NCBI GenBank assembly: GCA_039805285.1
Contig: JBDLUO010000057.1
Location: forward strand, 1-40,415
DNA: 40,415 nucleotides
Direction of reading: 5' to 3'
DNA from: Bacteroidota bacterium
GTDB lineage: Bacteria; Bacteroidota; Bacteroidia; Chitinophagales; Chitinophagaceae
The notes under the pieces are model-generated. The model saw only the letters and a list, made by a program, of their open reading frames with translations, had not been told where the DNA came from and did no database searches. Both the position numbers and the translations under genes were made by a program. Each line of letters opens with the position of its first letter. Positions within the stretch are counted from its first letter, which is position 1. Below are positions 1,791 to 23,436 of the stretch, in pieces.

Positions 1791-4109
1791 CTAGGTAATA
1801 CCCATCATTTCCGAAACAATCGATGCCACTTCTTTAGCAGCATCATTAGGTAAATATGCCGTATCACTAATGCCAGAAACAACGCGTGTAATGTCGTGAT
1901 CGACCTTGCCACGAGAATGCCAATTTGATGCTGATGTAGCAGTAATATAGACTGAAAAATTGCGGTGTATCGTGCCAGGACGCTCGCCTATTATATGTAT
2001 TACACTGTGCTTTTTCAATTGTTCCTTTCCAAAAAGATGCTCTCCAATTTCGTACCCTGCTCGTACACGTCCGTTGCGAATCACAATAGGCGATTCAGCA
2101 ATAGATAAATTCTGTGAAGTCAGATTTTGGTAAAGAGAAGGAAGAAATGTTTCGAGATGTCCTTCATCCATAAGCGATTGGGCATTCAAACCTTCCGAAA
2201 TGATGATCTGCACATCTGGTAAACTCTTTTTGAACTTTTTACGTAACCCTTGAATTACCCTTACGCTTTCTTGTGAAATGCGCTCTCCGCTAGCAGGATG
2301 ATAAACATAGTCAATTCTGTTCGTCGACTTAGACTGTATCACTACAGCATTTCTTATGGACTTCAAATAAGGCGTCTCCCATTCTGTCCATAAACAATAT
2401 TTGGCGTCTTTGTATAGTGCCTGTATTTCGCGATCGAGTGAAGGTTGCAATTGCCAGATCTTTTCTCCAAATCCTTCAGCAATAGGAACTCCACGTTTAC
2501 GAACCCGCTCAATGGCAGCTTTGCCCTCCAACAATATTGTTTCATCGCTGCGTAAATCGCCTTTTGCCCTACAATAGCGCAAATAGACTTGGGTGGGTTG
2601 ACCAAAAAAAGCTGTTGGTTTATTGTCTGCGCCAATCACATCGATGCGCTTAAAAAACGCCCACATCGCATCATTTACTTTGTAACCAAATTGCTCACGC
2701 ACCCGAACGTGGTCGGCAAATGAAGTGGTAAGATAGCTGAGCATTGGATCATTTTTCGTAGGCAGCGCCATCAGATAGGCTGGATTCGCTGGCATAACCT
2801 GATCGATGCACCAATCCAAATCATCCAGACTCACATCCATATGAAGCGTTGTGCAAATGTCGAGTCCAATGGTAAGTCCATGAAGCTTGCCCATTACAAG
2901 ATCTTCGAGGCAACAACGTACGAGTTGTTCCTTGGTACGAAATACTTCTGGACCAATGAAACCTGCTACATTATTGAGAAATACCCAGGGTTCCGTATTG
3001 TTATTTTTTTGCTTGATGATGCGTTGCTTCAATGCACGTAAGAAGCCGTATTTGCGTGACTCGTGTACAACCATATCAAACCCCTCACCGTGTCCGTTAG
3101 TGGCATCGGCACCTTGTCCTGTTTCTGCATAGAGTCCATACAGATTTCCTTTTCGGGCATCGGCATGCGCCTTCATTTTTTCTATGGTTACATCAAAGGT
3201 TTGATTGGCCTTCACAGTACCAGCCAGACTCTGAAACCAAACTCCAGTTGTACCTGGTTGAACCCCTTCTACTTTTGATTGTATATCTATATGTGAAAGC
3301 ACACAATTGGGCATTGTTTTTTCCAACTGAAAGGTCGTTAGCAAATCATGTAATGCTGCTTCGATACGAGCAACCATGACCGAGTCACTGGAAACAGGGT
3401 TTGTTCCAAGTACCAAATCTCCCACCCCATAAGACCAGGCATCAAATACCTGCCAAACAATATCTTCGATGTTGTCGGTCGGCGAGTTTGGTTGCACTCT
3501 TGCACTAACGTATCCTTTTGCGCCAATGTTACTGTTTGGTAGTGGATTAAAGACTTTGCTGCTGATGGTTATGAGTTCGTTATTGGACAAAAGTTTCACG
3601 ACCATAGCAATAAGATCACTTGAAAGCGATGGCATGATGCGCTTTATGGCATCTTCATCAGATTCCAAGAGGAAGTTTTTTAATTGACGGAAGTTCATAT
3701 CAATAACCTCTTTTTCAAATACGGTAGTGTTTTGAATGAGGTCATATTGTTCGTCTTTAAAAAGCGGATGAGCTAGAACGTCTGATAGTTTTGTGTTGGA
3801 AATAAGTCCGCGTGCCATTATTCTGGCAGACTCGTTTGCCGCTGCAATACCCGCAATTTCATCGCCTTCTTTAAATTCATTTGCAGCACCAACCAACTGT
3901 CTGTATAATTTTATGTCAAATCCGCCCTTAATCCGACGGATGTAAGTAAAAATATCTTCCTCATTAAGCGCGTCCTCAAAATCAATCCGCTGATGTGTTG
4001 GAAAGACTGGCATACCAAAAACTTGAGATCTGGTAAGCATCATGGAGATGCTTGCAACTCCCAATTGAAGCAGGAAATTTCGGCGTGGGTTTGGGTTTGA
4101 AATGGTCAT
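1791..4109 (-). CDS. eutBC: Fused ethanolamine ammonia-lyase large and small subunits (EutB-EutC) with a twin-arginine signal peptide
   Basis: EutB motifs RVQPNSPTD, GDLVLGTNP, FQSLAGT, ETGQG, GFIGPE, GLDICTTLH, MLSYLTTSFAD. EutC motifs EGLNA, GRVRAG, IGERPG. N-terminus PRRNFLL is followed by a hydrophobic stretch. A -7 box TACATTTG lies at 4150-4157. Confidence 0.9.
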   Translation of the reverse strand: MTISNPNPRRNFLLQLGVASISMMLTRSQVFGMPVFPTHQRIDFEDALNEEDIFTYIRRIKGGFDIKLYRQLVGAANEFKEGDEIAGIAAANESARIMARGLISNTKLSDVLAHPLFKDEQYDLIQNTTVFEKEVIDMNFRQLKNFLLESDEDAIKRIMPSLSSDLIAMVVKLLSNNELITISSKVFNPLPNSNIGAKGYVSARVQPNSPTDNIEDIVWQVFDAWSYGVGDLVLGTNPVSSDSVMVARIEAALHDLLTTFQLEKTMPNCVLSHIDIQSKVEGVQPGTTGVWFQSLAGTVKANQTFDVTIEKMKAHADARKGNLYGLYAETGQGADATNGHGEGFDMVVHESRKYGFLRALKQRIIKQKNNNTEPWVFLNNVAGFIGPEVFRTKEQLVRCCLEDLVMGKLHGLTIGLDICTTLHMDVSLDDLDWCIDQVMPANPAYLMALPTKNDPMLSYLTTSFADHVRVREQFGYKVNDAMWAFFKRIDVIGADNKPTAFFGQPTQVYLRYCRAKGDLRSDETILLEGKAAIERVRKRGVPIAEGFGEKIWQLQPSLDREIQALYKDAKYCLWTEWETPYLKSIRNAVVIQSKSTNRIDYVYHPASGERISQESVRVIQGLRKKFKKSLPDVQIIISEGLNAQSLMDEGHLETFLPSLYQNLTSQNLSIAESPIVIRNGRVRAGYEIGEHLFGKEQLKKHSVIHIIGERPGTIHRNFSVYITATSASNWHSRGKVDHDITRVVSGISDTAYLPNDAAKEVASIVSEMMGIT

Positions 4110-6965: not shown

Positions 6966-7139
6966 TTACTTTTAGTTAGAGGTTTGTCTACCCGCCAAAG
7001 CGTTTAAATTTGTGTGACTTGTCGTTGTGGTAGAAAAACACTACCAATACCTGGTATAATTACAATTCTTATATTTAATACAAAAGCTTCATAGATTTAC
7101 AACTCTTGCCGTATTGCCAAGTCGATGTTAGCAGCCGTA

Positions 7140-7892
7140 TTATTTCCAGAAGATGTAACTGTATTTTTCTTCAATAGTTAAACCACCTAAATCCACTTTT
7201 ATTTTAAAGGTTTTACTTTTCAAAAAACCATCCTTGTCATAGGAAAGAATATAATCAGGCTTTCCCGATTGCATAACGACAGAAATATTTCCTGATTCAT
7301 CATATTTGAATTCAGTCGTCCCTGCGCTAACGGGAGTAACAATATTGGTTTCTATGTAGGTTTCCTGAATCCCTTTTAATTTTCCATTTTTGTCATAGCT
7401 ATAAAATGAAACTCTTTTTGAACTTAATGCCGTGTCCTTAGAAAGAAATGTGATGGATTGAACTTTTCTTTTGTTTTCGTTGTAGATATTTTTCGTCAGG
7501 AATGGCAGTTCGCTTGATGTCTCTTGAATTAAGAGTGGTCCGTCATATGTTTTATAGAATATTACAGTATCAGTTCTATTAACGTCATAAGCGACATTTA
7601 TTCGTTCAATTTGGTCTCCTTGATTATTGTAAATGAAAGTGTAGTCATTCACATTTTTTAAGTTTTTGTCAAGTATTGTTTGTTTTATCAAAAATCCATT
7701 ATTATCGAAATCAAATATGGAAAATGAGGTTTTGTTACTGTCAATATCGTTTGTGACATAAACCTGTTTGATTTTATGCTCAAGAATGTAAGTCTTGTCA
7801 TAACTACCGTTAAAAAAAGCATCGGAGTCATTTAACTGACCGAAAAGTGTACCCGATAATAAGCTAAAAATTAAAGAAATACAGTATCTCAT
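7140..7892 (-). CDS. Secreted protein with YD-like repeats
   Basis: Signal peptide MRYCISLIFSLLSGTLFG. Recurrent (Y/F)D..G.L units: FDNNGFL, YNNQGDQ, YDKNGKL, YDESGNI, YDKDGFL. Confidence 0.65.
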   Translation of the reverse strand: MRYCISLIFSLLSGTLFGQLNDSDAFFNGSYDKTYILEHKIKQVYVTNDIDSNKTSFSIFDFDNNGFLIKQTILDKNLKNVNDYTFIYNNQGDQIERINVAYDVNRTDTVIFYKTYDGPLLIQETSSELPFLTKNIYNENKRKVQSITFLSKDTALSSKRVSFYSYDKNGKLKGIQETYIETNIVTPVSAGTTEFKYDESGNISVVMQSGKPDYILSYDKDGFLKSKTFKIKVDLGGLTIEEKYSYIFWK

Positions 7893-11874: not shown

Positions 11875-13791
11875 ATGAAAGATGCGCTCGAAATATTGAA
11901 ACAGTACTGGGGTTACGACTCGTTCCGTCCTGGACAAACAGAGATCATCGAAGCGGTGATGGAAGGAAATGATGTTCTGGCGTTATTGCCTACGGGCGGA
12001 GGAAAATCAATTTGTTTTCAGGTACCAGCGCTTGCTTCTGATGGATTATGTCTAGTGATTACGCCGTTAATCGCACTGATGAAAGACCAGGTAGAAAATT
12101 TATTACAAAGAGGCATAAACGCAGATTTTATTCACTCCGGACTTACCTCGTATGAGGTAGAAAAAGTGCTGCAACGTGCAGCTCGTGGCGATATCCATTT
12201 TTTGTATCTGTCTCCAGAAAGAATCTCAACGCGTATGATGGATGAGTATCTTTTGGATTTAGATGTTTCACTTATAGCCATCGATGAAGCGCACTGTATT
12301 TCTCAATGGGGTTACGATTTTAGACCCGCTTACCTCAAGATCGCTGAGCTAAGAGAAGAACTTCCCGATGTTCCAGTAATTGCTTTATCTGCATCCGCCA
12401 CACTCGAAGTACAACATGATATCTGTGAAAAATTAGCATTCAGAAAAAATCAAAAACGCTTTCAACAATCCTTTCACAGACCCAACATAAAATACATTGT
12501 TGAGCAACCAGCATCAAAATCGGCAAGACTCATACAATGGCTGGAAAAAAGCAAAAACAGTACTGCTATCGTTTATGCAAAAACGAGAAAAGAAACCATG
12601 CAGACAGCAGAACTGCTGAAACAACATGGTTTTTCTGCAGACCATTATCACGCTGGTTTAAGCAGCGACGAGCGTGCCGAAAAGCAACAGCATTGGATTG
12701 AAAACCGAACACGAATCATGGTTTGCACCAATGCGTTCGGAATGGGCATCGACAAGCCGGATGTTCGTATGGTCATTCATTCTGGTATGCCAGAAAGTTT
12801 AGAAAATTATTATCAGGAAGCAGGTAGAGCAGGCAGAGACGGTAAGGAATCAACTGCCATTTTGTTGATCGCACCTCACGAAGAAGAAAACCTGTATAAA
12901 TTGAATGCTCTACGATATCCCGAACCCGAGGAGTTGAAAAAAGTGTATTTGAATTTGATGGATCATTTACAAATTGCTGCAGGTTCCGGAGAAGGACAAA
13001 GACACAATTTTGATATCCATGCCTTTTCAGATTCTTTTCAGTGGAACCCTTTACAAGCTTCCTATTTTATTCAAGCACTCGCGCAGGAGGGACTGATTTT
13101 TTTAACCGAAAAAGACACTCGTCCTTCTCGTATTGAATTTATTACAGACAAAGAAACCTTGAGAGACTATGGAGAGCAGAATGTTGACATGGATAAATTA
13201 ATAAAGGGTTTGCTAAGAACCTATGAGGGCATTTTCGATTATCATACAAGCATCTACGAAACGCATATCGCAAAATTTCTTTCCACACCCATCGGAAAAA
13301 TCAGAGCTCAATTGGTGGAGCTTCATCGTGCAAGAATCATCCGTTATGAAATAGCACCAGAAAAACCTCAATTGTTGCTTTTAATGAACCGGATGTATCG
13401 CGATGACCTTCGATTCAACTTAGATGCATTAAAAGCCAGAAAACAAAGACATCTCGAAAGAATCAAATCCATGATTGGTTTTGTGAACAACCAAAACGAA
13501 TGTCGAAGCGTGATGATTGGCAAATACTTTAATGATTTGGAAATTAAGTCATGCGGGATATGTGATGTTTGTGAAAAAAACAGAAGTGAATCCAAAATAG
13601 ATCTTCAAGTTCTTAAAGAGAAAATGGTTGACTATCTGAAAGACTGGGCAGATTTTGATAGCATAGTAACTCATTTCGGCATGCAATATGAATCCGAAAT
13701 AAAAATGACTTGCAGATTCCTCATTGAAAACGGAATCATAATCGAGGATGAATGGGGAAAGCTGAAGGCAAAAAAAAAGGGACCAAGATAA
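11875..13791 (+). CDS. recQ: RecQ-family ATP-dependent DNA helicase
   Basis: PTGGGKS, DEAHCISQWGYDFRPAY, SASAT, QEAGRAGRDG and Zn motif CRS...CGICDVC. No HRDC domain evident. Confidence 0.93.
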   Translation: MKDALEILKQYWGYDSFRPGQTEIIEAVMEGNDVLALLPTGGGKSICFQVPALASDGLCLVITPLIALMKDQVENLLQRGINADFIHSGLTSYEVEKVLQRAARGDIHFLYLSPERISTRMMDEYLLDLDVSLIAIDEAHCISQWGYDFRPAYLKIAELREELPDVPVIALSASATLEVQHDICEKLAFRKNQKRFQQSFHRPNIKYIVEQPASKSARLIQWLEKSKNSTAIVYAKTRKETMQTAELLKQHGFSADHYHAGLSSDERAEKQQHWIENRTRIMVCTNAFGMGIDKPDVRMVIHSGMPESLENYYQEAGRAGRDGKESTAILLIAPHEEENLYKLNALRYPEPEELKKVYLNLMDHLQIAAGSGEGQRHNFDIHAFSDSFQWNPLQASYFIQALAQEGLIFLTEKDTRPSRIEFITDKETLRDYGEQNVDMDKLIKGLLRTYEGIFDYHTSIYETHIAKFLSTPIGKIRAQLVELHRARIIRYEIAPEKPQLLLLMNRMYRDDLRFNLDALKARKQRHLERIKSMIGFVNNQNECRSVMIGKYFNDLEIKSCGICDVCEKNRSESKIDLQVLKEKMVDYLKDWADFDSIVTHFGMQYESEIKMTCRFLIENGIIIEDEWGKLKAKKKGPR

Positions 13792-13833
13792 AAATCTAGT
13801 CCCGCTTTAAAATCCAATATCCTATGAAAAACC
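13770..13833 (-). ncRNA. Candidate small RNA, copy 1
   Basis: A -7-like box TATCTTCG (13838-13845) lies 4 nt before GGTTTTTCATAGGATATTGGATTTTAAAGC, followed by hairpin GGGACTAGAT-TTTT-ATCTTGGTCCC and a T run. 58/61 identical to 23269-23329. Confidence 0.75.
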
Positions 13834-13982
13834 AAAACGAAGATAGTTCAATTTTTGACTATTGATCATTTCGGTTTCAAAAAGAAAAAAAATTAACATT
13901 GAAGGTTTGTATTTTTGCAACTAGATAATAAGGGTTGATTTTCTAAATCATAGAAAGAAAATCTGCCGATAATGTAAACAAA

Positions 13983-14936
13983 ATGAAAGGATTGAAAATA
14001 AAGTTTGTCTTGTTTTCCTTTTTAGCAATCGCCTTTTTTGCTTTACGTTCTTCCGAATCTGGAAAGAAAAAATACAGCAAAGAAAAGTTGGGTGAACTGT
14101 TGTTTAATGAAAAAATCTTATCTCTCGATTCTACAGTCAGCTGCGCAAGCTGTCATAAACCTGAATTTGCATTTTCAGACACAAGTGCCTTCAGCATTGG
14201 AATTGGCGGAAAACCAACAAAACGAAATACCCCTTCTGTATTGAACATGAAAAATCGTCCATACTACTTTTGGGATGGACGAGCATCTACATTGTCTGAA
14301 CAATCTTTAATGCCAATCCAAAACCCCGACGAAATGAATTTGAGTATTCGGGAAGCTGTAAAAAGATTGAATCAAAATGCATTTTATGTGGATTATTTTA
14401 AAAGCGTATTCAAGCGCGCACCAGACAGTTTGAGTTTAGCAACTTCTTTTGAATCTTATGAAAATACGTTGGAAACGGTTGACAGTAAATTTGATGATTG
14501 GGGAGAAAATAAATTGGAGCTCTCTGCTCAAGAAGAAAGAGGCAGAAAAGTATTTCTGAGTGATAAATCCCGTTGCTTCGATTGTCACTTTTTAGTCGAT
14601 TTCACCAACGACGATTTCAAAAACATCGGTCTATACAACGGGATTCTCCTCAACGACAAAGGAAGATTCAACATCACCAAAAATCCGGATGATCTGGGTA
14701 AGTTTAAAACACCCGGCTTAAGAAATATCGCCGTTACTGCACCTTACATGCACAATGGTATGTTTAAAACACTCGAAGAGGTGGTTGATTACTACAACAA
14801 TCCTTCTGCCGTCGTTCCAGACAGAATCAATATCGATTCCACTTTATTGAAACCACTTGGCTTAACAACATCAGAAAAAGCAGATTTGGTTGCATTCTTA
14901 AAAACACTGACTGATAAAAAATTCTCAAAAAACTGA
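13983..14936 (+). CDS. Di-heme cytochrome c peroxidase/MauG superfamily protein
   Basis: Signal peptide, two CxxCH motifs (CASCH, CFDCH), RNTPS, FWDGRA and FKTPGLRNIAVTAPYMHNG. A -7 box TATTTTTG lies at 13910-13917. Confidence 0.9.
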   Translation: MKGLKIKFVLFSFLAIAFFALRSSESGKKKYSKEKLGELLFNEKILSLDSTVSCASCHKPEFAFSDTSAFSIGIGGKPTKRNTPSVLNMKNRPYYFWDGRASTLSEQSLMPIQNPDEMNLSIREAVKRLNQNAFYVDYFKSVFKRAPDSLSLATSFESYENTLETVDSKFDDWGENKLELSAQEERGRKVFLSDKSRCFDCHFLVDFTNDDFKNIGLYNGILLNDKGRFNITKNPDDLGKFKTPGLRNIAVTAPYMHNGMFKTLEEVVDYYNNPSAVVPDRINIDSTLLKPLGLTTSEKADLVAFLKTLTDKKFSKN

Positions 14937-15062
14937 ATCTGGTCATCTTCGAAGATCGTTTTTTGAATTTAATTGCCTTTTTTCCTTTAACAAAAAATTA
15001 GTTTTGGTTTTGTTCCTTTCTGTAAGCATTACCCTAATTTGGAGTTACTAAAACAATTCATC

Positions 15063-15761
15063 ATGGAAACAACAAAAACCAAAGTGCTGCTGTGCGAAGA
15101 TGACACAAATCTTGGCATGGTTCTCAAAAACTATCTGGAACTGCATGATTTCGACGTTACCTTGGAAAGAGACGGCCGTTTGGGTTTGGCTGCTTTCCAA
15201 CGTGAAAAGTACGACATCTGTTTGCTAGACGTAATGATGCCAAACATGGATGGCTTTCAGGTTGCTGAAGAAATTCGCGACATTAATCCCGATGTGCCGC
15301 TTTTCTTCCTTAGCGCGAAAACCATGAAAGAAGACATCATTCAAGGCTATAAGCTAGGCGCAGACGATTACATTACAAAACCGTTCGACAGTGAAGTGCT
15401 GCTCCATAAAATCAAAGCCATCATCAAAAGAAATGAAGAAGTACATCGCGAAGAAGCGAATGCAGAATTCGACTTGGGCGGCTATCATTTCAATCCGAGA
15501 CTGCGCGAGTTAAGCTTTGCTGGAAAAATGCAAACGCTGTCTCCAAAAGAAAATGAGCTTCTAAAAATGCTTGCCGAATACAAGAATGATTTGCTACCAA
15601 GAGAATCGGCGTTAAAGAGAATTTGGGGCAGTGATACTTACTTCAATGGAAGAAGCATGGACGTGTATATTGCAAAGTTGAGAAAATACCTGAAAGAAGA
15701 TCCAAAATTGGAAATCGTGAACATTCACGGTAATGGTTTCCGACTTGTGGTTACAGAATAA
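15063..15761 (+). CDS. rprY: OmpR-family response regulator, RprY-like (no adjacent kinase)
   Basis: Receiver motifs EDD, LDVMMP and GADDYITKPF, and wHTH WGSDTYFNGRSMDVYIAKLRK...NIHGNGF typical of Bacteroidota RprY. ATG 15063 preferred over TTG 15039. Confidence 0.85.
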   Translation: METTKTKVLLCEDDTNLGMVLKNYLELHDFDVTLERDGRLGLAAFQREKYDICLLDVMMPNMDGFQVAEEIRDINPDVPLFFLSAKTMKEDIIQGYKLGADDYITKPFDSEVLLHKIKAIIKRNEEVHREEANAEFDLGGYHFNPRLRELSFAGKMQTLSPKENELLKMLAEYKNDLLPRESALKRIWGSDTYFNGRSMDVYIAKLRKYLKEDPKLEIVNIHGNGFRLVVTE

Positions 15762-15770
15762 TTATAAACC

Positions 15771-16808
15771 CTACCCGCTGAAAAGATCAAACCCAGTGCC
15801 GCCTTTGTGCGGCACTTTTCCTAAGTGGCGGTATGCTTTTTCTGTCGCCTCTCTGCCTCTTGGTGTTCGCATGATAAATCCTTCCGCAATTAGAAAAGGC
15901 TCATACACTTCTTCAAGTGTATCGGGTTCCTCTCCAACGGCAGTGGCAATTGTGGTCAATCCTACAGGTCCGCCCTTGAATTTTTCAATGATTGCACTCA
16001 AGATGCGATTGTCCATTTCATCTAATCCATGTTCATCAACATTCAGTGCTTTAAGAGCATGAACCGTAATTTCAAGATCAATCACACCCGTGCCCAACAC
16101 TTGTGCGAAATCTCTCACGCGTCTCAATAATCCATTGGCAATTCTAGGTGTTCCCCTGCTTCTTCGTGCAATTTCAAAAGCAGCATCCGTCGTAATTTTT
16201 GTCTGAAGTATGTTCGCACTGCGAATCAAAATGTTTTTCAACGTCTCCGAAGAATAATATTCCAATCTCGATTTGATGCCAAATCGGGTAAGCAAAGGTG
16301 ATGTAAGTAAACCACTTCTCGTTGTGGCGCCTATCAAGGTAAACGGATTCAATGAAAGTTGGACACTCCTTGCGTTTGGACCACTGTCTATCATAATGTC
16401 GATTCTGAAATCCTCCATTGCTGCATAGAGATACTCTTCTACAACGGTACTTAACCGGTGAATTTCATCGATAAACAACACATCATTCGGTTCCAAATTG
16501 GTAAGAAGGCCCGCAAGATCCCCTGGCTTTTCAATCACGGGTCCGGAGGTTTCTTTGATGTTCACCCCCATTTCATTGGCTACAATCCTGGACAATGTGG
16601 TTTTTCCGAGTCCTGGTGGCCCATGAAAAAGTACATGATCCAAAGCTTCACCCCTGAGCTTCGAAGCACGGATGAAAATGGTCAGATTCTCAATAATCTG
16701 TGCTTGCCCACTAAAATCTTGAATATAACCCGGACGGATATTGTTCTCAAATTCCTTATCGGGGGAACTCAGTATATTTTTGGGATTGTTGGGATCGGGG
16801 TTGGACAT
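15771..16808 (-). CDS. ruvB: Holliday junction branch migration helicase RuvB
   Basis: [36 protein letters not shown]...RTPRGR. Confidence 0.97.
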
Positions 16809-16881
16809 AAATAAGTTGTACGTTAAAATTAATCAATTCTGCTCAACGAAAACAGCAAATTGATTTTCCATTTGGATATTG

Positions 16882-16915
16882 CGCCTCTGATACAAGCATT
16901 TCGCCCTTTATACAA
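16882..16915 (+). promoter_or_regulatory. Imperfect direct repeat upstream of the lytS/lytTR promoter (candidate LytTR operator)
   Basis: CGCCTCTGATACAA (16882-16895) and CGCCCTTTATACAA (16902-16915), 20-bp period, upstream of the -7-like box TAGATTTA at 16946-16953. Confidence 0.5.
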
Positions 16916-16958
16916 TCAAATTAAGGTGAATTAAAGAATTGAATTTAGATTTACATCG

Positions 16959-18017
16959 ATGAAACTGAAAAAGAATTTTATTTACTGGTGCTGTCAAATA
17001 GGTGGATGGTCTGCAATCGCCTTTATATCCATTTTTCTAGGCTCGATTTTCGGAAAGCCCGAATTTTTGTACTATGTAAGTATCATTCTAACATGCGTTA
17101 CGGGCATTCTTGTAACTCATGTTATGAGGATAGCCATAATTCGAATGGAAATATTAAGTAAACCTCTGGGAAAACAGATTCTCTACCTCTTGTTGTTTAC
17201 AGTCCTATTCTCGATTTTGTTGGCGGTTGTAAGTGAAATCTTAGATAGAATCATAGCATATTTTCCAAAAAGATTGGAAAATATCAGTCTCTTCAGAAAA
17301 CTATTCATCGGCACTTTCAATAGCATATGGCTTTTATTGATTTGGAATCTCTTGTATGGCTTATATCATTTTGTAGTAAAATCAAGGCGCCAACAAATGA
17401 ACACGCTCAGACTCGAAGCCATGGTTAAATCCCTTGAGCTTAAAACCATTAAAGCGCACATCAACCCACATTTCATTTTTAATGCGTTAAACAGCATCAG
17501 AGCATTGGTAGATGAAAATCCAGAACGAGCCAGAAATGCCATTACCGCATTGAGCAGTATCCTACGGAGCAGCATGCTCGCAGAAAAAATGGAAACCGTT
17601 GCATTAAAACAAGAAATCGAAATTGTGAAGGATTACCTTGGATTAGAGCAAATCCGTTTCGAAGAGCGGCTAAAAATAGAATTATCACTGGATGAATCGA
17701 GTCATGAACTTCCCATACCTACCATGATGCTTCAAACGCTGGTAGAGAATGCCATCAAACACGGAATCAGCAAGCAAGTTAATGGCGGAATAATCAGAAT
17801 TACTTCTCTAGTGAAAGAAGATTCTTTTGAAGTAAAAGTAGAAAATACCGGAAAGCTAAATGAGAGAAATCCCAATGATGAAGGTGGTTTCGGACTAAAA
17901 AGTACAATGGACAGACTCACTCTGTTATACGAACAAGATGCACAATTCAGCATTTTCAACGACATTGAAAATAAAATGGTGGTGTGTAAAATTGTTTTGC
18001 CCCTTAACGCTAATTGA
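16959..18017 (+). CDS. LytS/YehU-type membrane sensor histidine kinase
   Basis: About 4 TM helices, KAHINPHFIFNALNSI, QTLVENAIKHG and GFGL. Confidence 0.92.
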   Translation: MKLKKNFIYWCCQIGGWSAIAFISIFLGSIFGKPEFLYYVSIILTCVTGILVTHVMRIAIIRMEILSKPLGKQILYLLLFTVLFSILLAVVSEILDRIIAYFPKRLENISLFRKLFIGTFNSIWLLLIWNLLYGLYHFVVKSRRQQMNTLRLEAMVKSLELKTIKAHINPHFIFNALNSIRALVDENPERARNAITALSSILRSSMLAEKMETVALKQEIEIVKDYLGLEQIRFEERLKIELSLDESSHELPIPTMMLQTLVENAIKHGISKQVNGGIIRITSLVKEDSFEVKVENTGKLNERNPNDEGGFGLKSTMDRLTLLYEQDAQFSIFNDIENKMVVCKIVLPLNAN

Positions 18018-18033
18018 TCCAAAATAGAATACC

Positions 18034-18762
18034 ATGTACAAAGCAATAATCATAGATGATGAAAGATTGGCAAGAACTGAACTAAAAAAAATGCTTGCGG
18101 AATTTCAGGACATAGAAATTATTGCTGAAGCCGCAAATGCTGGCGAAGGCATCGAAAAAATTGAAACACTACAACCCGATTTGATTTTTTTAGACATTCA
18201 AATGCCCGACAAAACGGGATTTGAACTTTTGCAAGAATTAGATAAGGCACCAAAAGTGGTTTTCACTACAGCGTATGATGAATTTGCTTTAAAAGCATTT
18301 GAATTTAATGCGTTGGATTATCTGCTTAAACCGATTGATAGAAAACGACTTTCTGATGCCATCCAAAAACTGATTTTGTCTGAAGAAAAAGAAGCATTGG
18401 TGCAATCGGTTGCAAACAGAAATATATTGACAGAAAACGACCAAGTGTTTGTAAAAGACGGTGAAAAATGTTGGTTTGTCAAGCTCTCCGAAGTAAGACT
18501 TTTTGAAAGTGCAGGAAATTATGCCAAAGTGTTTTTCGGTTCTAATAAACCCTTGATTTTAAAATCGCTAAACGCATTGGAAGAGAGATTGGATGATAAA
18601 ACATTTTTTAGGGCCAATAGAAAGCACATCATAAATATGCGAATGATTGTTAAAGTAGAACCCTATTTCAACAATGGACTGATGCTTGAATTACAAGGCG
18701 GAGATAAAATTGAAGTAAGCAGAAGACAATCGGTAAAGTTCAGAGAGATGATGAGTCTTTAA
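18034..18762 (+). CDS. LytTR-family response regulator
   Basis: IIDDE, FLDIQMP, TTAYD, DYLLKP and LytTR motifs FFRANRKHIIN...VSRR. Confidence 0.93.
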   Translation: MYKAIIIDDERLARTELKKMLAEFQDIEIIAEAANAGEGIEKIETLQPDLIFLDIQMPDKTGFELLQELDKAPKVVFTTAYDEFALKAFEFNALDYLLKPIDRKRLSDAIQKLILSEEKEALVQSVANRNILTENDQVFVKDGEKCWFVKLSEVRLFESAGNYAKVFFGSNKPLILKSLNALEERLDDKTFFRANRKHIINMRMIVKVEPYFNNGLMLELQGGDKIEVSRRQSVKFREMMSL

Positions 18763-18784
18763 TCAAATCTACATTCTCATCATC

Positions 18785-18826
18785 AATCACTAATTACCAA
18801 TCACAAATCACTAATCATTAATCGAT
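18785..18826. repeat. Degenerate 7-bp tandem repeat (6 units, consensus AATCACT)
   Basis: aatcact aattacc aatcaca aatcact aatcatt aatcgat. Confidence 0.8.
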
Positions 18827-18836
18827 TTCGGTAATT

Positions 18837-19508
18837 ATGACTCCCAAAAATGTACTCATAACAGGCACCAATGGAATGATTGGGAATGAAATACTGCAAC
18901 TTTGTCTGCATTCAACGGATGTGAAAAGCATCATCAGCATCACACGAAAAAAAATAGACGCAGTATCACCAAAACTGAAGCAAATCATCCATTCAGATAT
19001 GTTACATCTAGATGGCATATCTGATGAATTAAAAAATATAGATGTTGTTTTTTATTGTTTGGGTGCTTATACCGGAACGGTTTCAACTGAAGAACTTTTT
19101 AAGATAACGGTAAACCTCACACGGAGTTTCACCGACTGCATTGTCAAACAGAATCCATCCGTTGATATTTCTTTTTTAAGCGGTCAGGGAGCTGACAATT
19201 CTGAAACCAGCAAGATTCCTTTTGCAAAAGCCAAGGGTATGGCAGAAAATCATTTATTGAAATCTGGGTTAAAAAATGTCTTTTTATTTAGACCTGGATA
19301 TATTTATCCTGTAACCAAACGGAAAGAGCCAAATGCGATGTACCGAATTTTTAGGGCTATCTATCCAATTGTTTCATTGATCTATCCCAATATTGGATTG
19401 GACTCTAAAACTCTTGCAAAAGCAATGTTTAAAGCGGGGTTAACAGAAAATGGCCGACGAATTTTTGAAAATAAAGACATTAAGAAATACGCAAAAGAAG
19501 GCATCTAG
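18837..19508 (+). CDS. NAD(P)-binding oxidoreductase, YraR/TIP30-like atypical SDR
   Basis: ITGTNGMIG, FYCLG, FLSGQGAD, KGMAEN and FRPGYI. Confidence 0.8.
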   Translation: MTPKNVLITGTNGMIGNEILQLCLHSTDVKSIISITRKKIDAVSPKLKQIIHSDMLHLDGISDELKNIDVVFYCLGAYTGTVSTEELFKITVNLTRSFTDCIVKQNPSVDISFLSGQGADNSETSKIPFAKAKGMAENHLLKSGLKNVFLFRPGYIYPVTKRKEPNAMYRIFRAIYPIVSLIYPNIGLDSKTLAKAMFKAGLTENGRRIFENKDIKKYAKEGI

Positions 19509-19511
19509 AAA

Positions 19512-20270
19512 CTATACTTTTTCTGTGCCAGCGGCATGAACAGCAGATGAAATTTCCGAAATTAAGGAACGATCTTTTTCTATGGCATTGCCGACAACAA
19601 TGATATCGGCTCCTGCATTTGAACTTAGAAAAGCTTGCTCCGGACTAACGATTCCGCCACCTACAATCAAAGGGACATTTATTGATTTGGATACTCTTTT
19701 TATTAACTCTGCAGATACCGGACGCTTCGCTCCGCTACCAGCATCCATGTAAATCAATTTCATACCCAACATCTCGCCCGCCATTGCCGTGCACATGGCA
19801 ATATCTGATTTGTCTGATGGTAAAGGACTCGCATTGCTGATGTACGACACCGTTGTTGGCGCGCCTCCATCAACAACCATATATCCGGTAGACATTACCT
19901 CTAGTCCACTTTGTTTTACAAAAGGAGCAGAAATTACATGCTGTCCAATAAGCAACTCAGGATTTCTTCCGCTAATCAATGATAAATATAAAAGCGCATC
20001 CGCTTTGCGAGAAAGTTGAGACGGGCTTCCAGGAAATAATATAACCGGAAGGTCAGAATTTGCTTTGATCGTTTCCACGCAAGATTCCAAATAATCTGAA
20101 ACCACCAAACTGCCTCCAACAAAAATATAATCCACTTTGGCTTCTTCCGAAAGTTCAATCAAACGCGTTAGAGATTCTGCATCCATTTTATCGGGGTCTA
20201 CCAAAACGGCAAAAGACTTCTTGTTGAGAAGTTTTTGTTGTGTCATATTTTGATAAATGCCCTTGTTCAT
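19512..20270 (-). CDS. pcrB: Geranylgeranylglyceryl/heptaprenylglyceryl phosphate synthase (PcrB family)
   Basis: LVDPDK, VGGS, LFPGS, LISGRNP, YMDAGSGA, VGGGI, GADIIVVGN. Start moved to ATG 20270. Confidence 0.9.
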   Translation of the reverse strand: MNKGIYQNMTQQKLLNKKSFAVLVDPDKMDAESLTRLIELSEEAKVDYIFVGGSLVVSDYLESCVETIKANSDLPVILFPGSPSQLSRKADALLYLSLISGRNPELLIGQHVISAPFVKQSGLEVMSTGYMVVDGGAPTTVSYISNASPLPSDKSDIAMCTAMAGEMLGMKLIYMDAGSGAKRPVSAELIKRVSKSINVPLIVGGGIVSPEQAFLSSNAGADIIVVGNAIEKDRSLISEISSAVHAAGTEKV

Positions 20271-20540
20271 GCAAATAAAGAATTCATGCAAAAATGTGCT
20301 TTTTTTCGCGCACAACGAAATAATAAGAAGTCCTTATCTCCACAGCCCCGAAAAAACAGAAAAAACTCAGATTTATGAATACGTATATAACTAAAGTAAA
20401 AACGCTGTTTCTCCTTTCAAATTCCCATAAAATAGGTACTATTGATGTGCTTTCATACCATTTTTAACATAAGCCCATTAAATTCCATCGAATCATTAAC
20501 GATTTTTGTATTCCGGTTTCCGATTTTTTACCTTTAGTCT

Positions 20541-21602
20541 CTGAAAACACGAATTACCATATCCATTCTTCTACTTTTGGGCGTTTCGGTATTGTTGATC
20601 GGCTCCGAATCTGCCATTCCGTTCGAACAACATCCCATCTCATTCAAAGTGCCTAAAGGATGGCCCAAGCCAATCTACAAGTTTAAAAACAACAAGCTTA
20701 CAGAAGAAGGATTTGAGCTAGGTAAGAAATTGTTTTACGATGGGAGACTCAGCAAAAATGGGGAGTTCAGTTGTGGATCCTGTCATCAGCCCTTTGCCGC
20801 TTTTGCTCATTTCGACCACGATCTGAGTCATGGCGTAAACGACCAACTGAGTAATCGAAACGCACCTGCGCTCATCAACGTGGCATGGATGAAAGAAATG
20901 CATTGGGACGGCGCAATCAACCACATCGAAGTTCAACCCCTCGCTCCGATTACCGATCCTAAAGAAATGGGAGAACAACTCGATTCCGTTTTACATAAAC
21001 TGAAAAACGACACTTCTTACGTTCGCATGTTTAAAGAAGCTTTCGGAACCCCAGAAATTAACAGCCAGAAAATGTTGAGAGCTTTGGCTCAATTCGTTGC
21101 CTCGCTTGTAAGTAGCAACAGCAGATTCGATCGCTTTCAAAGAGGAGAAGCCACACTCACCAACTACGAACTTAAAGGCTATCAACATTTTAAAACCCAC
21201 TGCTCATCCTGCCATAAAGAACCCTTATTCACCGACAATAACTTCCACAACAACGGACAAAAATTGAACCGATTCAAGGATATTGGAAGAATGAAAGTAA
21301 CAGGCAATCCAATGGATTCACTCAAATTCAAAACGCCGACACTGAGGAATGTCCAAATTACCTATCCTTATATGCATGACGGACATATTTATTCTCTCTC
21401 ACAAGCAATAGACCATTATGCTCAAGGCATAGACACTGGAATGATAAATCTAGATCCGGCTTTGAGAAAGAAAATTGTACTCACCAAAAAAGAAAAAATG
21501 GAACTGGTCTATTTTCTCTACACCCTCACAGATAGCAGTTTCATCAACAATCCCAGATTTGCTGCCCCAAGACCACTCACAATCGGACACGATCATCGTT
21601 AA
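20541..21602 (+). CDS. Di-heme MbnH/MauG-like cytochrome c peroxidase superfamily protein
   Basis: CGSCH, CSSCH, RNAPAL, HWDG and FKTPTLRNV..TYPYMHDG. An in-frame CTG at 20541 restores a full signal peptide (MKTRITISILLLLGVSVLLIG), with an in-frame stop at 20535. Confidence 0.88.
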   Translation: MKTRITISILLLLGVSVLLIGSESAIPFEQHPISFKVPKGWPKPIYKFKNNKLTEEGFELGKKLFYDGRLSKNGEFSCGSCHQPFAAFAHFDHDLSHGVNDQLSNRNAPALINVAWMKEMHWDGAINHIEVQPLAPITDPKEMGEQLDSVLHKLKNDTSYVRMFKEAFGTPEINSQKMLRALAQFVASLVSSNSRFDRFQRGEATLTNYELKGYQHFKTHCSSCHKEPLFTDNNFHNNGQKLNRFKDIGRMKVTGNPMDSLKFKTPTLRNVQITYPYMHDGHIYSLSQAIDHYAQGIDTGMINLDPALRKKIVLTKKEKMELVYFLYTLTDSSFINNPRFAAPRPLTIGHDHR

Positions 21603-21646
21603 GCTTTGAAAAATAGGATGTAAATTACAGTCAAACTTATTTTCAG

Positions 21647-23176
21647 TTGAGCGGAATAAAAAAACTGGCCGGACAAACTTTATGGTATGGTTTGCCAACT
21701 ATTGCAAGCCGATTCCTTGGTTACCTAATGAATATGGCCCTTCCATTTTTTATTGACTTGCCAGAAAAAACAGCTGACCTCGTTCAAGTTTACACCCTTA
21801 TTCCTTTCCTGAATGTCATTTTCGCTTACGGTATGGAAACGGCTTATTTTAGGTTCTCCCAGCAGATAGAAAAAGAGAAATTATACAACACTTTATTTCT
21901 TTCGTTGTTTTCCAGCACCATTTTATTTAGTGCCATACTTTGGCTCATTCAGCCTTGGATTGTTTCAGCCGCAGATTTAGCAGCGCATCCAGAATATGTG
22001 TGGTGGATGATTGCCATTATTGCGACAGACAACCTAAACACGTTGCCTTTTGCCAGACTTCGTCAGGAGAACAAACCTAAAAAATATGCATTTGTGCGAA
22101 TCAGCGGCATTCTAGTGAATCTGGCGCTGGTTATTTTTTTTCTGGGATTCGCTCCGAAAATGGCAGCAGAAAACAACAGCTGGCTTTCTGCCTGGTATAA
22201 TCCGGATTTTGGATTGGGATACTACCTTGTTGGAAATCTTGCGGGAAGTGCAATAACCATGCTACTGCTTTTCGGAGAATGGAGAAGCGTAAAGCTGAAA
22301 TTCAGTTTCTCGGTTTGGAAGGATGTGATGAAATACAGTTCTCCACTCATTATCGTTGGTTTGGGAGGGATGGTAAATGATGTACTGAGCCGAATGATAT
22401 ACAGGCATGCGGTAAATCTACCAGTTGAACAAGCCAATCATGAACTTGGCGTATTTGCAAATATTTTTCGTTTAGCCCTTCTCGTTACCATAATGATTCA
22501 GGCTTTTCGTATGGCAGCAGAGCCTTTTTTCTTCAATCGGAGTCAGGATGAGGACGCGAAGAAAACATACGCCAGAATCATGAAGTTCTTTGTAATCGCC
22601 TGCTGTTTCCTTTTCCTTTTCATTTCGCTTTATCTTGATGTTTTTCGCTGGATTTTTCTGAACCTTGCCAACGAAAGATGGACCGAAGGTTTAGAAGTAG
22701 TGCCGTTGCTCACATTGGGGAATATTTTTCTCGGTATCTATTACAACCTCAGCATTTGGTATAAACTCACAAACAAAAACAATTATGGCGCCATCATCAC
22801 ATTGATGGGTGCGGCAATAACCATCGGATTAAACATCTGGCTGATTCCAATCTTACATTATACCGGTGCTGCTTTGGCAACAGCAGTTTGCTATTTTTTC
22901 ATGATGGTCAGCAGCTACAAATGGGGTAAAAAGCATTATCCCGTTCCCTATCCTATAAAGAAAATGACTTCATACCTTGTAACAGCAGTCTTGCTCTACC
23001 TCGTACATTTTGCATTGCGCAGTTGGATTTCACCACTCTGGTTCTCTATTGCCAGTGCATCATTTTTCATTTATCTTTTTACCCGATTGGTTCTTAAAGT
23101 AGAAGAGCAAGAACTGATGAAATTGCCGTTGTTGAAAAAATGGTATGAAAAGAAAAAATTACAAGCTGAACCATAA
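21647..23176 (+). CDS. Polysaccharide flippase (Wzx/MATE-like polysaccharide biosynthesis protein)
   Basis: TTG start MSGIKKLAGQT..YG, YGMETAYFRF, QAFRMAAEPFFF and about 13-14 hydrophobic helices. Confidence 0.85.
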   Translation: MSGIKKLAGQTLWYGLPTIASRFLGYLMNMALPFFIDLPEKTADLVQVYTLIPFLNVIFAYGMETAYFRFSQQIEKEKLYNTLFLSLFSSTILFSAILWLIQPWIVSAADLAAHPEYVWWMIAIIATDNLNTLPFARLRQENKPKKYAFVRISGILVNLALVIFFLGFAPKMAAENNSWLSAWYNPDFGLGYYLVGNLAGSAITMLLLFGEWRSVKLKFSFSVWKDVMKYSSPLIIVGLGGMVNDVLSRMIYRHAVNLPVEQANHELGVFANIFRLALLVTIMIQAFRMAAEPFFFNRSQDEDAKKTYARIMKFFVIACCFLFLFISLYLDVFRWIFLNLANERWTEGLEVVPLLTLGNIFLGIYYNLSIWYKLTNKNNYGAIITLMGAAITIGLNIWLIPILHYTGAALATAVCYFFMMVSSYKWGKKHYPVPYPIKKMTSYLVTAVLLYLVHFALRSWISPLWFSIASASFFIYLFTRLVLKVEEQELMKLPLLKKWYEKKKLQAEP

Positions 23177-23268
23177 AATCTTCCAAGTTCTACCGTAAAC
23201 ATCGCGTGTTCGTGAGGATGATGTGTTTTATCAATGCATCATATCATTGAACAATCAATTCCGGACGT

Positions 23269-23329
23269 AAAAAAGGGGCCAAGATAAATATCTAGCCCCG
23301 CTTTAAAATCCAATATCCTATGAAAAACC
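23269..23329 (-). ncRNA. Candidate small RNA, copy 2
   Basis: A -7-like box TACTTTTA (23334-23341) lies 4 nt before the same 5' sequence as copy 1, followed by hairpin GGGGCTAGAT-ATTT-ATCTTGGCCCC and TTTTTT. Confidence 0.75.
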
Positions 23330-23436
23330 GATATAAAAGTATATCTAAAATTCGTTTCGGCTTGTTTCAAGTTTGTTCAATTGACATACGCGCCATATAC
23401 CCCATATATGAGCATATATGTCTTGATTTATAACAA

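What the first reader, a model, noticed from the sequence alone, without database searches (positions are those of the whole stretch)
13770..23341. Two paralogous ~61-nt small RNA candidates with a 5' end complementary to start-codon regions
Seen: 13773-13833 and 23269-23329 are identical at 58 of 61 nt while their flanks are unrelated. Two of the three differences form a compensatory pair in the hairpin stem (GGGAC/GTCCC versus GGGGC/GCCCC) and the third is in the loop. The stem contains a U-G wobble and is followed by a U run only on the minus strand. Each copy has a different TAnnTTTG-like box (TATCTTCG, TACTTTTA) exactly 4 nt before the shared 5' end, the same spacing as at several gene starts in this window. 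The invariant 5' part GGUUUUUCAUAGGAUAUUGGAUUUU is the reverse complement of AAAATCCAATATCCT-ATG-AAAAACC, an A-rich leader plus ATG-AAA-AA. Inference: a multicopy trans-acting sRNA family that could block translation of many MK(K/N)-starting genes in a phylum that largely lacks Shine-Dalgarno pairing. It is conceptually similar to the paralogous FopS sRNAs of Bacteroides, but I cannot establish homology from here.
Basis: partly seen in the sequence, partly recalled or inferred. Interest (0 to 1): 0.88.

Follow-up and report, generated by a model that had tools for sequence, protein, structure and literature searches.

The report
FopS-like small RNAs with matching sponges
These two spots are copies of a short, highly conserved multicopy gene family of Chitinophagaceae bacteria whose predicted ~60-base RNA mirrors the commonest start of genes for predicted exported proteins and so likely dampens their translation, as the FopS RNAs of gut Bacteroides do, while longer non-coding units in the same genome carry clustered matching sites and would likely soak it up.

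Summary
Observation confirmed. The two 61-mers are 2 of 8 copies in this genome, and the family occurs in 44 of 60 genomes sampled from its family (Chitinophagaceae). The copies look like genes for a ~60-nt RNA. The terminator hairpin covaries at 10 of 10 pairs, loci are syntenic, and sigmaA-, ECF- and sigma54-type promoter motifs all point to the same first base. No transcript was seen. The first 10 nt complement AUGAAAAA, the commonest gene start, which is enriched 5-fold in signal-peptide-like genes. The 5' block matches Bacteroides FopS with a 2-nt insertion but fails the Rfam cut-off (16.9 vs 56 bits), so it is a sister family. They do pair with clustered sites in stand-alone non-coding units (3 clusters vs at most 1 in 99 shuffles), which are candidate multi-site sponges. 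Phages carry their own versions. My paper searches did not find the family in print, but this scan had already reported the family, its sponges and phage copies from other DNA; the sponge test came from one of those notes.

The parts
13770..13833 (-). Copy A, predicted ~61-64-nt sRNA gene; its 3' end overlaps the recQ stop codon on the opposite strand
   Evidence: model R1 85.4 bits; beside recQ in 11 of 19 loci from other genomes of the genus
13838..13845 (-). Copy A sigmaA-type -7 box TATCTTCG at -12 to -5
   Evidence: same position in 80 of 125 upstream regions
13824..13833 (-). Copy A head, nt 1-10, complementary to AUGAAAAA(CC)
13808..13823 (-). Copy A tail, nt 11-26; with the head it pairs with clustered sites in non-coding units
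   Evidence: no excess pairing with mRNA leaders
13770..13803 (-). Copy A terminator hairpin (13803-13779) and U run
23269..23329 (-). Copy B, predicted sRNA gene, about 108 nt downstream of icmF on the same strand, with its own promoter box
   Evidence: R1 84.7 bits; downstream of icmF in 2 of 19 relatives' loci
23334..23341 (-). Copy B sigmaA-type -7 box TACTTTTA at -12 to -5
23269..23299 (-). Copy B terminator hairpin (23299-23275) and U run

Best explanation
The two copies belong to a conserved multicopy family of Chitinophagaceae and are predicted to be genes for a ~60-nt small RNA whose first ten bases complement the commonest gene start (AUG AAA AA) and would likely block translation of many exported and outer-membrane protein mRNAs, as FopS does, while longer non-coding units with three or more matching sites would likely act as sponges that switch it off. 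Shown from sequence: the family, the covarying terminator, synteny, three promoter-motif classes aligned on one first base, the complementarity to starts, the bias of such starts to signal-peptide-like genes, and the clustered sites. Inferred: transcription from G1; pairing with mRNA and repression (by analogy with FopS-10 on susC BT_3983); different sigma factors feeding one RNA pool, so that several stresses raise the same brake; and sponging, in which many copies and many sites hold nt 11-26 nearly invariant.
For: Gene-like anatomy: 10 of 10 stem pairs show changes on both sides, 91% of cells pair against 30-60% in slid controls (87 sequences). Of 125 upstream regions, 80 have a sigmaA box at -12..-5 (shuffles: mean 1.8, max 6), 12 an ECF-type CAAY..CGTY motif (max 2) and 6 a sigma54-type motif (14 of 199 in the wider set; shuffles max 1). 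These classes match the mapped promoter types of Flavobacterium psychrophilum, where a -7-type box lies at -12 to -5 (PMC9723704, passages). Paralogs keep their neighbours. Head: ATGAAAAA is the top start octamer (117 of 1540 genes); 0.2% of seed shuffles contain its complement. 78 of 117 such genes are signal-peptide-like against 383 of 1418 others. In two relatives ATGAAAA starts 85 of 342 signal-peptide-like, 11 of 48 SusC and 29 of 610 other genes. TTTTCAT is kept in 53 of 55 model hits, while the full 20-mer is kept in 38. The same core is in FopS, shown to pair with start regions and block translation (PMC11697453, Results parts 2-3). Sponges: 11 non-coding sites at -20 kcal/mol or better against mean 3.0, max 9 in 38 tail shuffles; 3 clusters of at least 3 sites against max 1 in 99 shuffles. 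Similar non-coding multi-site units occur in 5 of 17 loci examined from other genomes. Only 7 of 27 sites keep AUG.
Against: No transcript, 5' end, duplex or repression was observed. The whole 26-nt seed hits start codons no more often than shuffled seeds (16.3% vs 14.9 +/- 4.4%; 400 of 1535 genes, 25 shuffles). Nt 11-26 add nothing over shuffled tails on 306 ATGAAA leaders, on 48 SusC leaders (71% of shuffles as good) or in contiguous helix length. Predicted mRNA duplexes are weak (mean -8 to -9 kcal/mol) beside the sponge sites (-20 to -27), so the mRNA role rests on a U-rich 8-10-mer plus analogy. Only 117 of 450 ATGAAAAA words in genes are starts. Gene starts and signal peptides come from my own simple callers. 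The clusters were seen before the shuffle tests were set up. The multi-site units are poorly conserved in sequence (one BLAST homologue in 27 genus genomes). Copies in related genomes are not independent.
Confidence: 0.6

Rival explanations
1. The multi-site RNAs are the effectors (decoys for a protein or for initiating ribosomes, CsrB-like in layout) and the short RNA mainly serves to mask or destroy them; its match to mRNA starts follows from the decoys imitating starts.
For: The strongest and only tail-dependent pairing is to the multi-site units. They are AUCC-rich, and the one unit folded is largely unstructured. mRNA leaders show no tail signal.
Against: FopS, with the same head, represses mRNAs directly. 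The short RNA is far more conserved than the multi-site units. Phages carry the short form.
Confidence: 0.17
2. The RNA titrates an RNA-binding protein, such as an RbpB-like RRM protein; the 5' block is invariant because a protein reads it.
For: FopS binds RbpB through its 5' part. RRM_1 genes are present here (2 copies) and in 23 of 24 family genomes. The 5' block holds two GGA words.
Against: CsrA, the known GGA reader, was not found in 5 of 5 genomes searched. Protein binding does not explain complementarity to start codons and to the clustered sites. It can coexist with the best explanation.
Confidence: 0.1
3. A small mobile repeat (REP/MITE-like) or a phage attachment site, with no RNA function.
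For: Variable copy number (0-15) rising with genome size (rho 0.64, n=60), tandem copies, and two phage types with the block upstream of an integrase.
Against: No target-site duplications (mean shared flank word 4.18 vs 4.26 for mismatched flanks, 117 copies). Stable synteny. Strand-specific promoter motifs outside the repeat. The 9 copies found in 10 fetched partial-match loci are all complete genes with divergent hairpins, not bare cores.
Confidence: 0.05
4. A cis element: a terminator or attenuator of the neighbouring gene, or the start of a small protein on the plus strand.
For: Copy A's hairpin overlaps the recQ stop and could also end recQ transcripts. The plus strand reads like a leader plus ATG AAA AAC.
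Against: The next gene downstream is on the same strand in 17, the opposite strand in 20 and absent in 2 of 39 loci. The plus-strand frame is short and unconserved (median 19 codons; 11 of 156 open for 50 codons).
Confidence: 0.04

Closest known systems
FopS, family of paralogous sRNAs of Bacteroides thetaiotaomicron (Rfam RF04319; Ruettiger et al. 2025, PMC11697453)
   Same: Multicopy; single-stranded 5' part plus intrinsic terminator; about 60-70 nt; sigmaA box just upstream; shared 5' block GUUUUUCAUAG then UAUU(A/G)GAUUU; also carried by phages; RRM proteins in the same genomes.
   Different: 2-nt insertion after the core; shorter linker and an unrelated hairpin with its own conserved loop; below the Rfam cut-off; Chitinophagaceae, not Bacteroidaceae; ECF- and sigma54-type promoter motifs on some paralogs (FopS: sigmaA only); a second seed class; candidate multi-site RNA sponges, whereas the known FopS antagonist is the protein RbpB.
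CrfA sponge and the four sibling sRNAs SisA-D of Caulobacter crescentus (PMC12559287; abstract and section list seen)
   Same: An RNA sponge that inactivates a family of paralogous sRNAs.
   Different: Hfq-associated and in Alphaproteobacteria; one sponge is described, whereas here several units each carry 3-5 start-codon-like sites; sequence relation not tested.
GibS of B. thetaiotaomicron (PMC7366714, passages)
   Same: Unstructured 5' seed that pairs across target start codons in a phylum without Shine-Dalgarno pairing; shares R1 with FopS.
   Different: Single copy, second seed R2, PM2 promoter; not aligned here.
Envelope-stress sRNAs MicA, RybB, MicL of enterobacteria (recalled, no call)
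   Same: ECF-driven small RNAs that curb outer-membrane protein synthesis; a functional analogy only.
   Different: Hfq-dependent, single-copy, target-specific seeds; no homology claimed.

Membership tests
FopS (RF04319) | Scores at or above the Rfam gathering threshold (56 bits) | tested here: not met
   Copy A 16.9 bits; copy B not among 11 matches at E<=10 (150 of 307 candidates scored); no RF04319 hit. Control: 16 of 17 FopS-type loci pass.
FopS (RF04319) | R1/R1' seed at the 5' end | tested here: inconclusive
   11-nt core identical, then 9 of 10 after a 2-nt insertion. Convergence nulls reach the score in 308 and 706 of 100000 trials and in 0 of 1553 real starts. R1 gives FopS 14-23 bits at 22 of 22 loci, no more than antisense strands of real MKK starts (23-26 bits).
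FopS (RF04319) | [quoted passage not shown] | tested here: met
   the hairpin sequence itself differs from that of FopS.
FopS (RF04319) | Multiple paralogs per genome | tested here: met
   8 copies here; 4-13 model hits in each of 7 relatives.
FopS (RF04319) | Canonical sigmaA promoter upstream | tested here: met
   Both window copies; 80 of 125 family copies; others carry ECF- or sigma54-type motifs.
FopS (RF04319) | Expressed as a discrete 65-70-nt RNA, bound by RbpB | not testable with these tools
   No reads could be laid; RRM_1 genes are present.
FopS (RF04319) | Pairs with and represses susC translation-initiation regions | tested here: inconclusive
   SusC starts pair slightly better than other genes (-8.5 vs -7.7 kcal/mol, p=0.013) but not better than with shuffled tails; repression not testable.
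REP/MITE-type mobile repeat | Target-site duplications and unstable positions | tested here: not met
CsrB/RsmZ-type system | CsrA/RsmA in the genome | tested here: not met
   PF02599 found in 0 of 5 genomes; controls ring.
Base-pairing sRNA sponge (for the multi-site units) | Non-coding unit with sites complementary to the sRNA seed | tested here: met
Base-pairing sRNA sponge (for the multi-site units) | Binds the sRNA in vivo and relieves its targets | not testable with these tools
   Needs experiments.

The most novel reading that the evidence does not exclude
Chitinophagaceae run an RNA-only rheostat on export-protein translation. One near-invariant anti-start-codon RNA is made from many loci under at least three sigma factors and is titrated by several multi-site decoy RNAs that imitate start regions and mostly lack AUG. 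Phages have captured their own versions, possibly to turn down receptor synthesis. It shares an ancestor with FopS, so the circuit spans distant Bacteroidota lineages.
Probability: 0.35. Interest if true: 0.85.

Novelty: new variant of a known kind. Interest (0 to 1): 0.62.

Why it matters
Bacteroidota lack Shine-Dalgarno pairing and Hfq, and how sRNAs control translation there is known from a few Bacteroides cases. FopS was described as conserved within Bacteroidaceae. A sister family in a distant, mostly environmental family would show that pairing over AUG AAA, which marks many exported proteins, is a general strategy in the phylum. The multi-site decoys and the mix of sigma factors give a testable answer to why bacteria keep many identical sRNA copies. 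Phage copies suggest a way for phages to tune host surface proteins.

Tried and rejected
Expression: no RNA holder was listed, so no reads could be laid; this is no evidence either way. Rfam: no hit for the window or for five stretches holding multi-site units or an RRM upstream region. Whole-seed and tail pairing with mRNA leaders: no gain over shuffles. Feedback on an RbpB-like gene: the strongest sites lie upstream of an RRM gene on C2, but 0 of 79 other RRM upstream regions have a site at -20 or better (0 of 25), so this was rejected as a conserved feature. Phage attachment site: suggested by integrases next to two phage copies; no bare cores were found in hosts; left open at low odds. Phage self-targeting: of 13 pattern matches in 5 phage records, 5 are the RNA itself and 2 of the other 8 open a frame of 70 codons or more; no support. 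Relatives in other families: the loose architecture pattern over 301 class genomes found this family, FopS and otherwise no clear family among the listed rows (262 rows unlisted; 10 genomes re-read). R1 gave at best E 1.5e-4 outside the family in 150 class genomes, with one better single hit in the order. The palindrome upstream of some paralogs did not define a recognisable regulon. Annotated phage collection: one weak chance hit. Pairing with the 16S rRNA end was considered from recall and dropped (4 nt only; not computed).
Full report
Observation. The two stretches are as described: 58 of 61 identical, one compensatory stem pair, one loop change, unrelated flanks, and a different -7-type box ending 4 nt before the shared G1. 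Copy A is convergent with recQ and overlaps its stop codon. Copy B lies about 108 nt downstream of icmF. No Rfam family covers them.

Extent. The genome (2.17 Mb, 95% complete) holds 8 copies: two here, one on C106, three in tandem on C172, and one each on C206 and C251. BLAST found matches in 35 of 36 genomes of the genus. The exact 5' 20-mer occurs in an estimated 5200 stored stretches of the species collection (2 of 64 parts scanned). The 80 record titles shown name Chitinophagaceae genera, Chitinophagales, or unresolved Bacteroidota, Sphingobacteriales or uncultured bacteria. A covariance model (R1, 109 sequences) hit 49 of 60 family genomes at E<=0.05, 44 of them at 1.2e-5 or better. Outside the family only weak hits appeared, several being antisense strands of real signal-peptide gene starts. 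The invariance is by construction. In a model-based set from 7 genomes, 38 of 55 hits keep the 20-mer, 53 keep TTTTCAT, and 8 form a second seed class, 7 of them at one conserved locus.

It behaves as an RNA gene. All 10 stem pairs show changes on both sides, and 91% of cells pair against 30-60% when partners are slid (the alignment was fitted to the model). Copy A's orthologue sits beside recQ in 11 of 19 relatives' loci and copy B's follows icmF in 2. There are no target-site duplications and no fixed orientation to the next gene, and the plus-strand frame is not conserved. The most telling point is upstream. Of 125 distinct upstream regions, 80 carry a TAnnTTTG-like box at -12 to -5, 12 an ECF-type CAAY..CGTY pair and 6 a sigma54-type TGGYA-N6-TTG motif ending 12-13 nt before G1, each far above shuffles. 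RpoN is present in 4 of 4 genomes checked. A palindrome TACCC-N6-GGGTA is centred at -42/-43 in 18 of 162 regions. The three promoter classes are those mapped in F. psychrophilum (PMC9723704, passages). Single genomes mix classes. Related copies are not independent, so these counts overstate significance. Transcription itself was not observed.

The head. Nt 3-10 complement ATGAAAAA, the commonest start octamer (117 of 1540 called genes; 104 with naive first-ATG starts); 0.2% of seed shuffles contain its complement. Such genes are signal-peptide-like in 78 of 117 cases against 383 of 1418 (a definition that ignores residues 1-4). The same bias holds among 1000 genes called in 79 stretches from two relatives. 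Gene and signal-peptide calls are my own heuristics.

The whole seed lands on start codons no more often than shuffled seeds. With the head fixed, the real tail does no better than shuffled tails on ATGAAA leaders, SusC leaders or helix length. Predicted mRNA duplexes average only -8 to -9 kcal/mol.

The tail has other partners. An earlier scan note (e1-9338947) mentioned a long RNA with docking sites, so I looked here. Non-coding stretches on C2 (about 7065-7400 plus; two units at about 10920-10750 and 10620-10460 minus), C156 (about 9290-9090 minus) and C67 (about 1840-2075 plus) carry runs of sites complementary to head and tail. Four of the five end in a terminator-like hairpin, and several follow sigmaA- or sigma54-like motifs. 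Genome-wide in non-coding DNA the real seed has 11 sites at -20 or better (38 tail shuffles: mean 3.0, max 9) and 3 clusters of at least 3 sites (99 shuffles: mean 0.05, max 1). I had seen the clusters before fixing these thresholds. A two-site pattern over 61 family genomes gave 17 distinct loci other than the sRNA genes, against 2 for the reversed control. Of 17 loci examined from other genomes, 5 are non-coding multi-site units; the other 12 lie in long frames or have at most one site. Only 7 of 27 sites keep AUG, and a FopS seed finds 0 sites on 10 units where this seed finds 26 (units partly selected by a tail-matching pattern). The units are poorly conserved in sequence.

Relation to FopS. 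The FopS-10 transcription primer (PMC11697453, supplementary file 4 rows) and the RF04319 consensus begin with the same 11-nt core and match 9 of the next 10 nt after a 2-nt insertion. Of that paper I saw the abstract, Results parts 2-3 of 4, one Methods section, the Discussion and supplement rows. Its Supplementary Fig. 5a on distribution and its target table were not seen and may bear on how widely FopS was traced. Membership by the Rfam cut-off fails. Convergence nulls reach the observed likeness in 0.3-0.7% of trials, and two viral contigs carry halfway forms, one with a 1-nt insertion. Against that, R1 scores FopS no higher than antisense gene starts, and the two families were found in different lineages with nothing between them in the genomes sampled. 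I put common origin at about 65%.

Phages. The 20-mer is in 5 viral contigs and the 16-mer in 55 stretches, 31 distinct contexts. Five of 31 have both a sigmaA box and a hairpin with U run, against 0 of 142 control sites; 9 have the hairpin against 8 of 142. Neighbours include terminases, endolysins and integrases. The FopS-type 20-mer is in an estimated 470 viral stretches; the paper mentions one phage. A role in lowering receptor synthesis is inference only.

Print and prior notes. Nine paper searches were run. None listed a description of this family; the exact-sequence search and the Chitinophagaceae small-RNA search returned nothing. The library lacks most subscription papers, and a comparative-genomics paper on Bacteroides sRNAs that I recall (Prezza et al. 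2022) was not read. Other papers seen: PMC13750123, PMC7366714 and PMC12205990 as passages; PMC12559287 as abstract and section list. This scan's own notes already report the family, the sponges and phage copies from other DNA; they are not independent evidence.

Verdict. A real, conserved, apparently unpublished sister family of FopS: a new variant of a known kind. Most likely it is an anti-start-codon repressor biased to exported proteins, fed by several promoter types and titrated by multi-site decoys (0.6). Interest 0.62.

Noticed in passing
G000:C2 about 7065-7400 (+), 10920-10750 and 10620-10460 (-); C156 about 9290-9090 (-); C67 about 1840-2075 (+); loci L669-L672: Five non-coding AUCC-rich units with clustered sites complementary to the sRNA 5' block; candidate sponges. 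The C2 plus-strand unit has a sigma54-like motif, no terminator found, and runs into an RRM gene in this genome only.
   Followed up: partly
G000:C172 4593-4897 (+): Tandem array of three paralogs just before a predicted sugar-kinase-like gene (named by eye, no family scan). Two read CAC in place of CAU, which would pair with GUG. CAC and CAA variants recur in L587, L583 and L211.
   Followed up: partly
G000:C206 8640-8697 and C251 5964-6021 (+): Second seed class with the same hairpin signature; the C206 locus is syntenic in 7 of 7 relatives checked and the seed also occurs in 2 viral contigs.
   Followed up: partly
Upstream of paralogs, e.g. L030, L081, L105, L125, L617: Palindrome TACCC-N6-GGGTA centred at -42/-43, the position of a class II activator site (recalled); rare elsewhere; regulator unknown.
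   Followed up: partly
L400 (viral contig) 42-1520: A TROVE/Ro60-like RNA-binding protein gene ends 10 nt before the phage copy of the 5' block, followed by an HNH nuclease and an integrase.
   Followed up: no
L406, L418, L420, L433, L437, L438, L442, L443 (viral contigs): Phage-borne versions sharing the 16-nt 5' block, most with their own terminator, several antisense within terminase or lysis regions.
   Followed up: partly
L459-L578 (viral contigs); G087, G130, G166, G200, G283, G334, G359: FopS-type 5' ends are common in viral contigs (about 470 estimated), many with phage-specific hairpins, and FopS occurs under several different family labels of the class, wider than one family.
   Followed up: no
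L645 (G139), L254 (G038), L179, L183, L184: Single sRNA-like units with a UUUUCAUAG-type 5' end and a terminator in other families, not antisense to long frames; possible further lineage variants or chance.
   Followed up: no
window 1791-4109 (-): One 772-aa frame carries both ethanolamine ammonia-lyase subunits (EutB then EutC), an apparent fusion.
   Followed up: no
window 13983-14936 and 20577-21602 (+): Two di-haem cytochrome c peroxidase/MauG-family genes lie within 7 kb; the first is next to copy A in 2 relatives as well.
   Followed up: no
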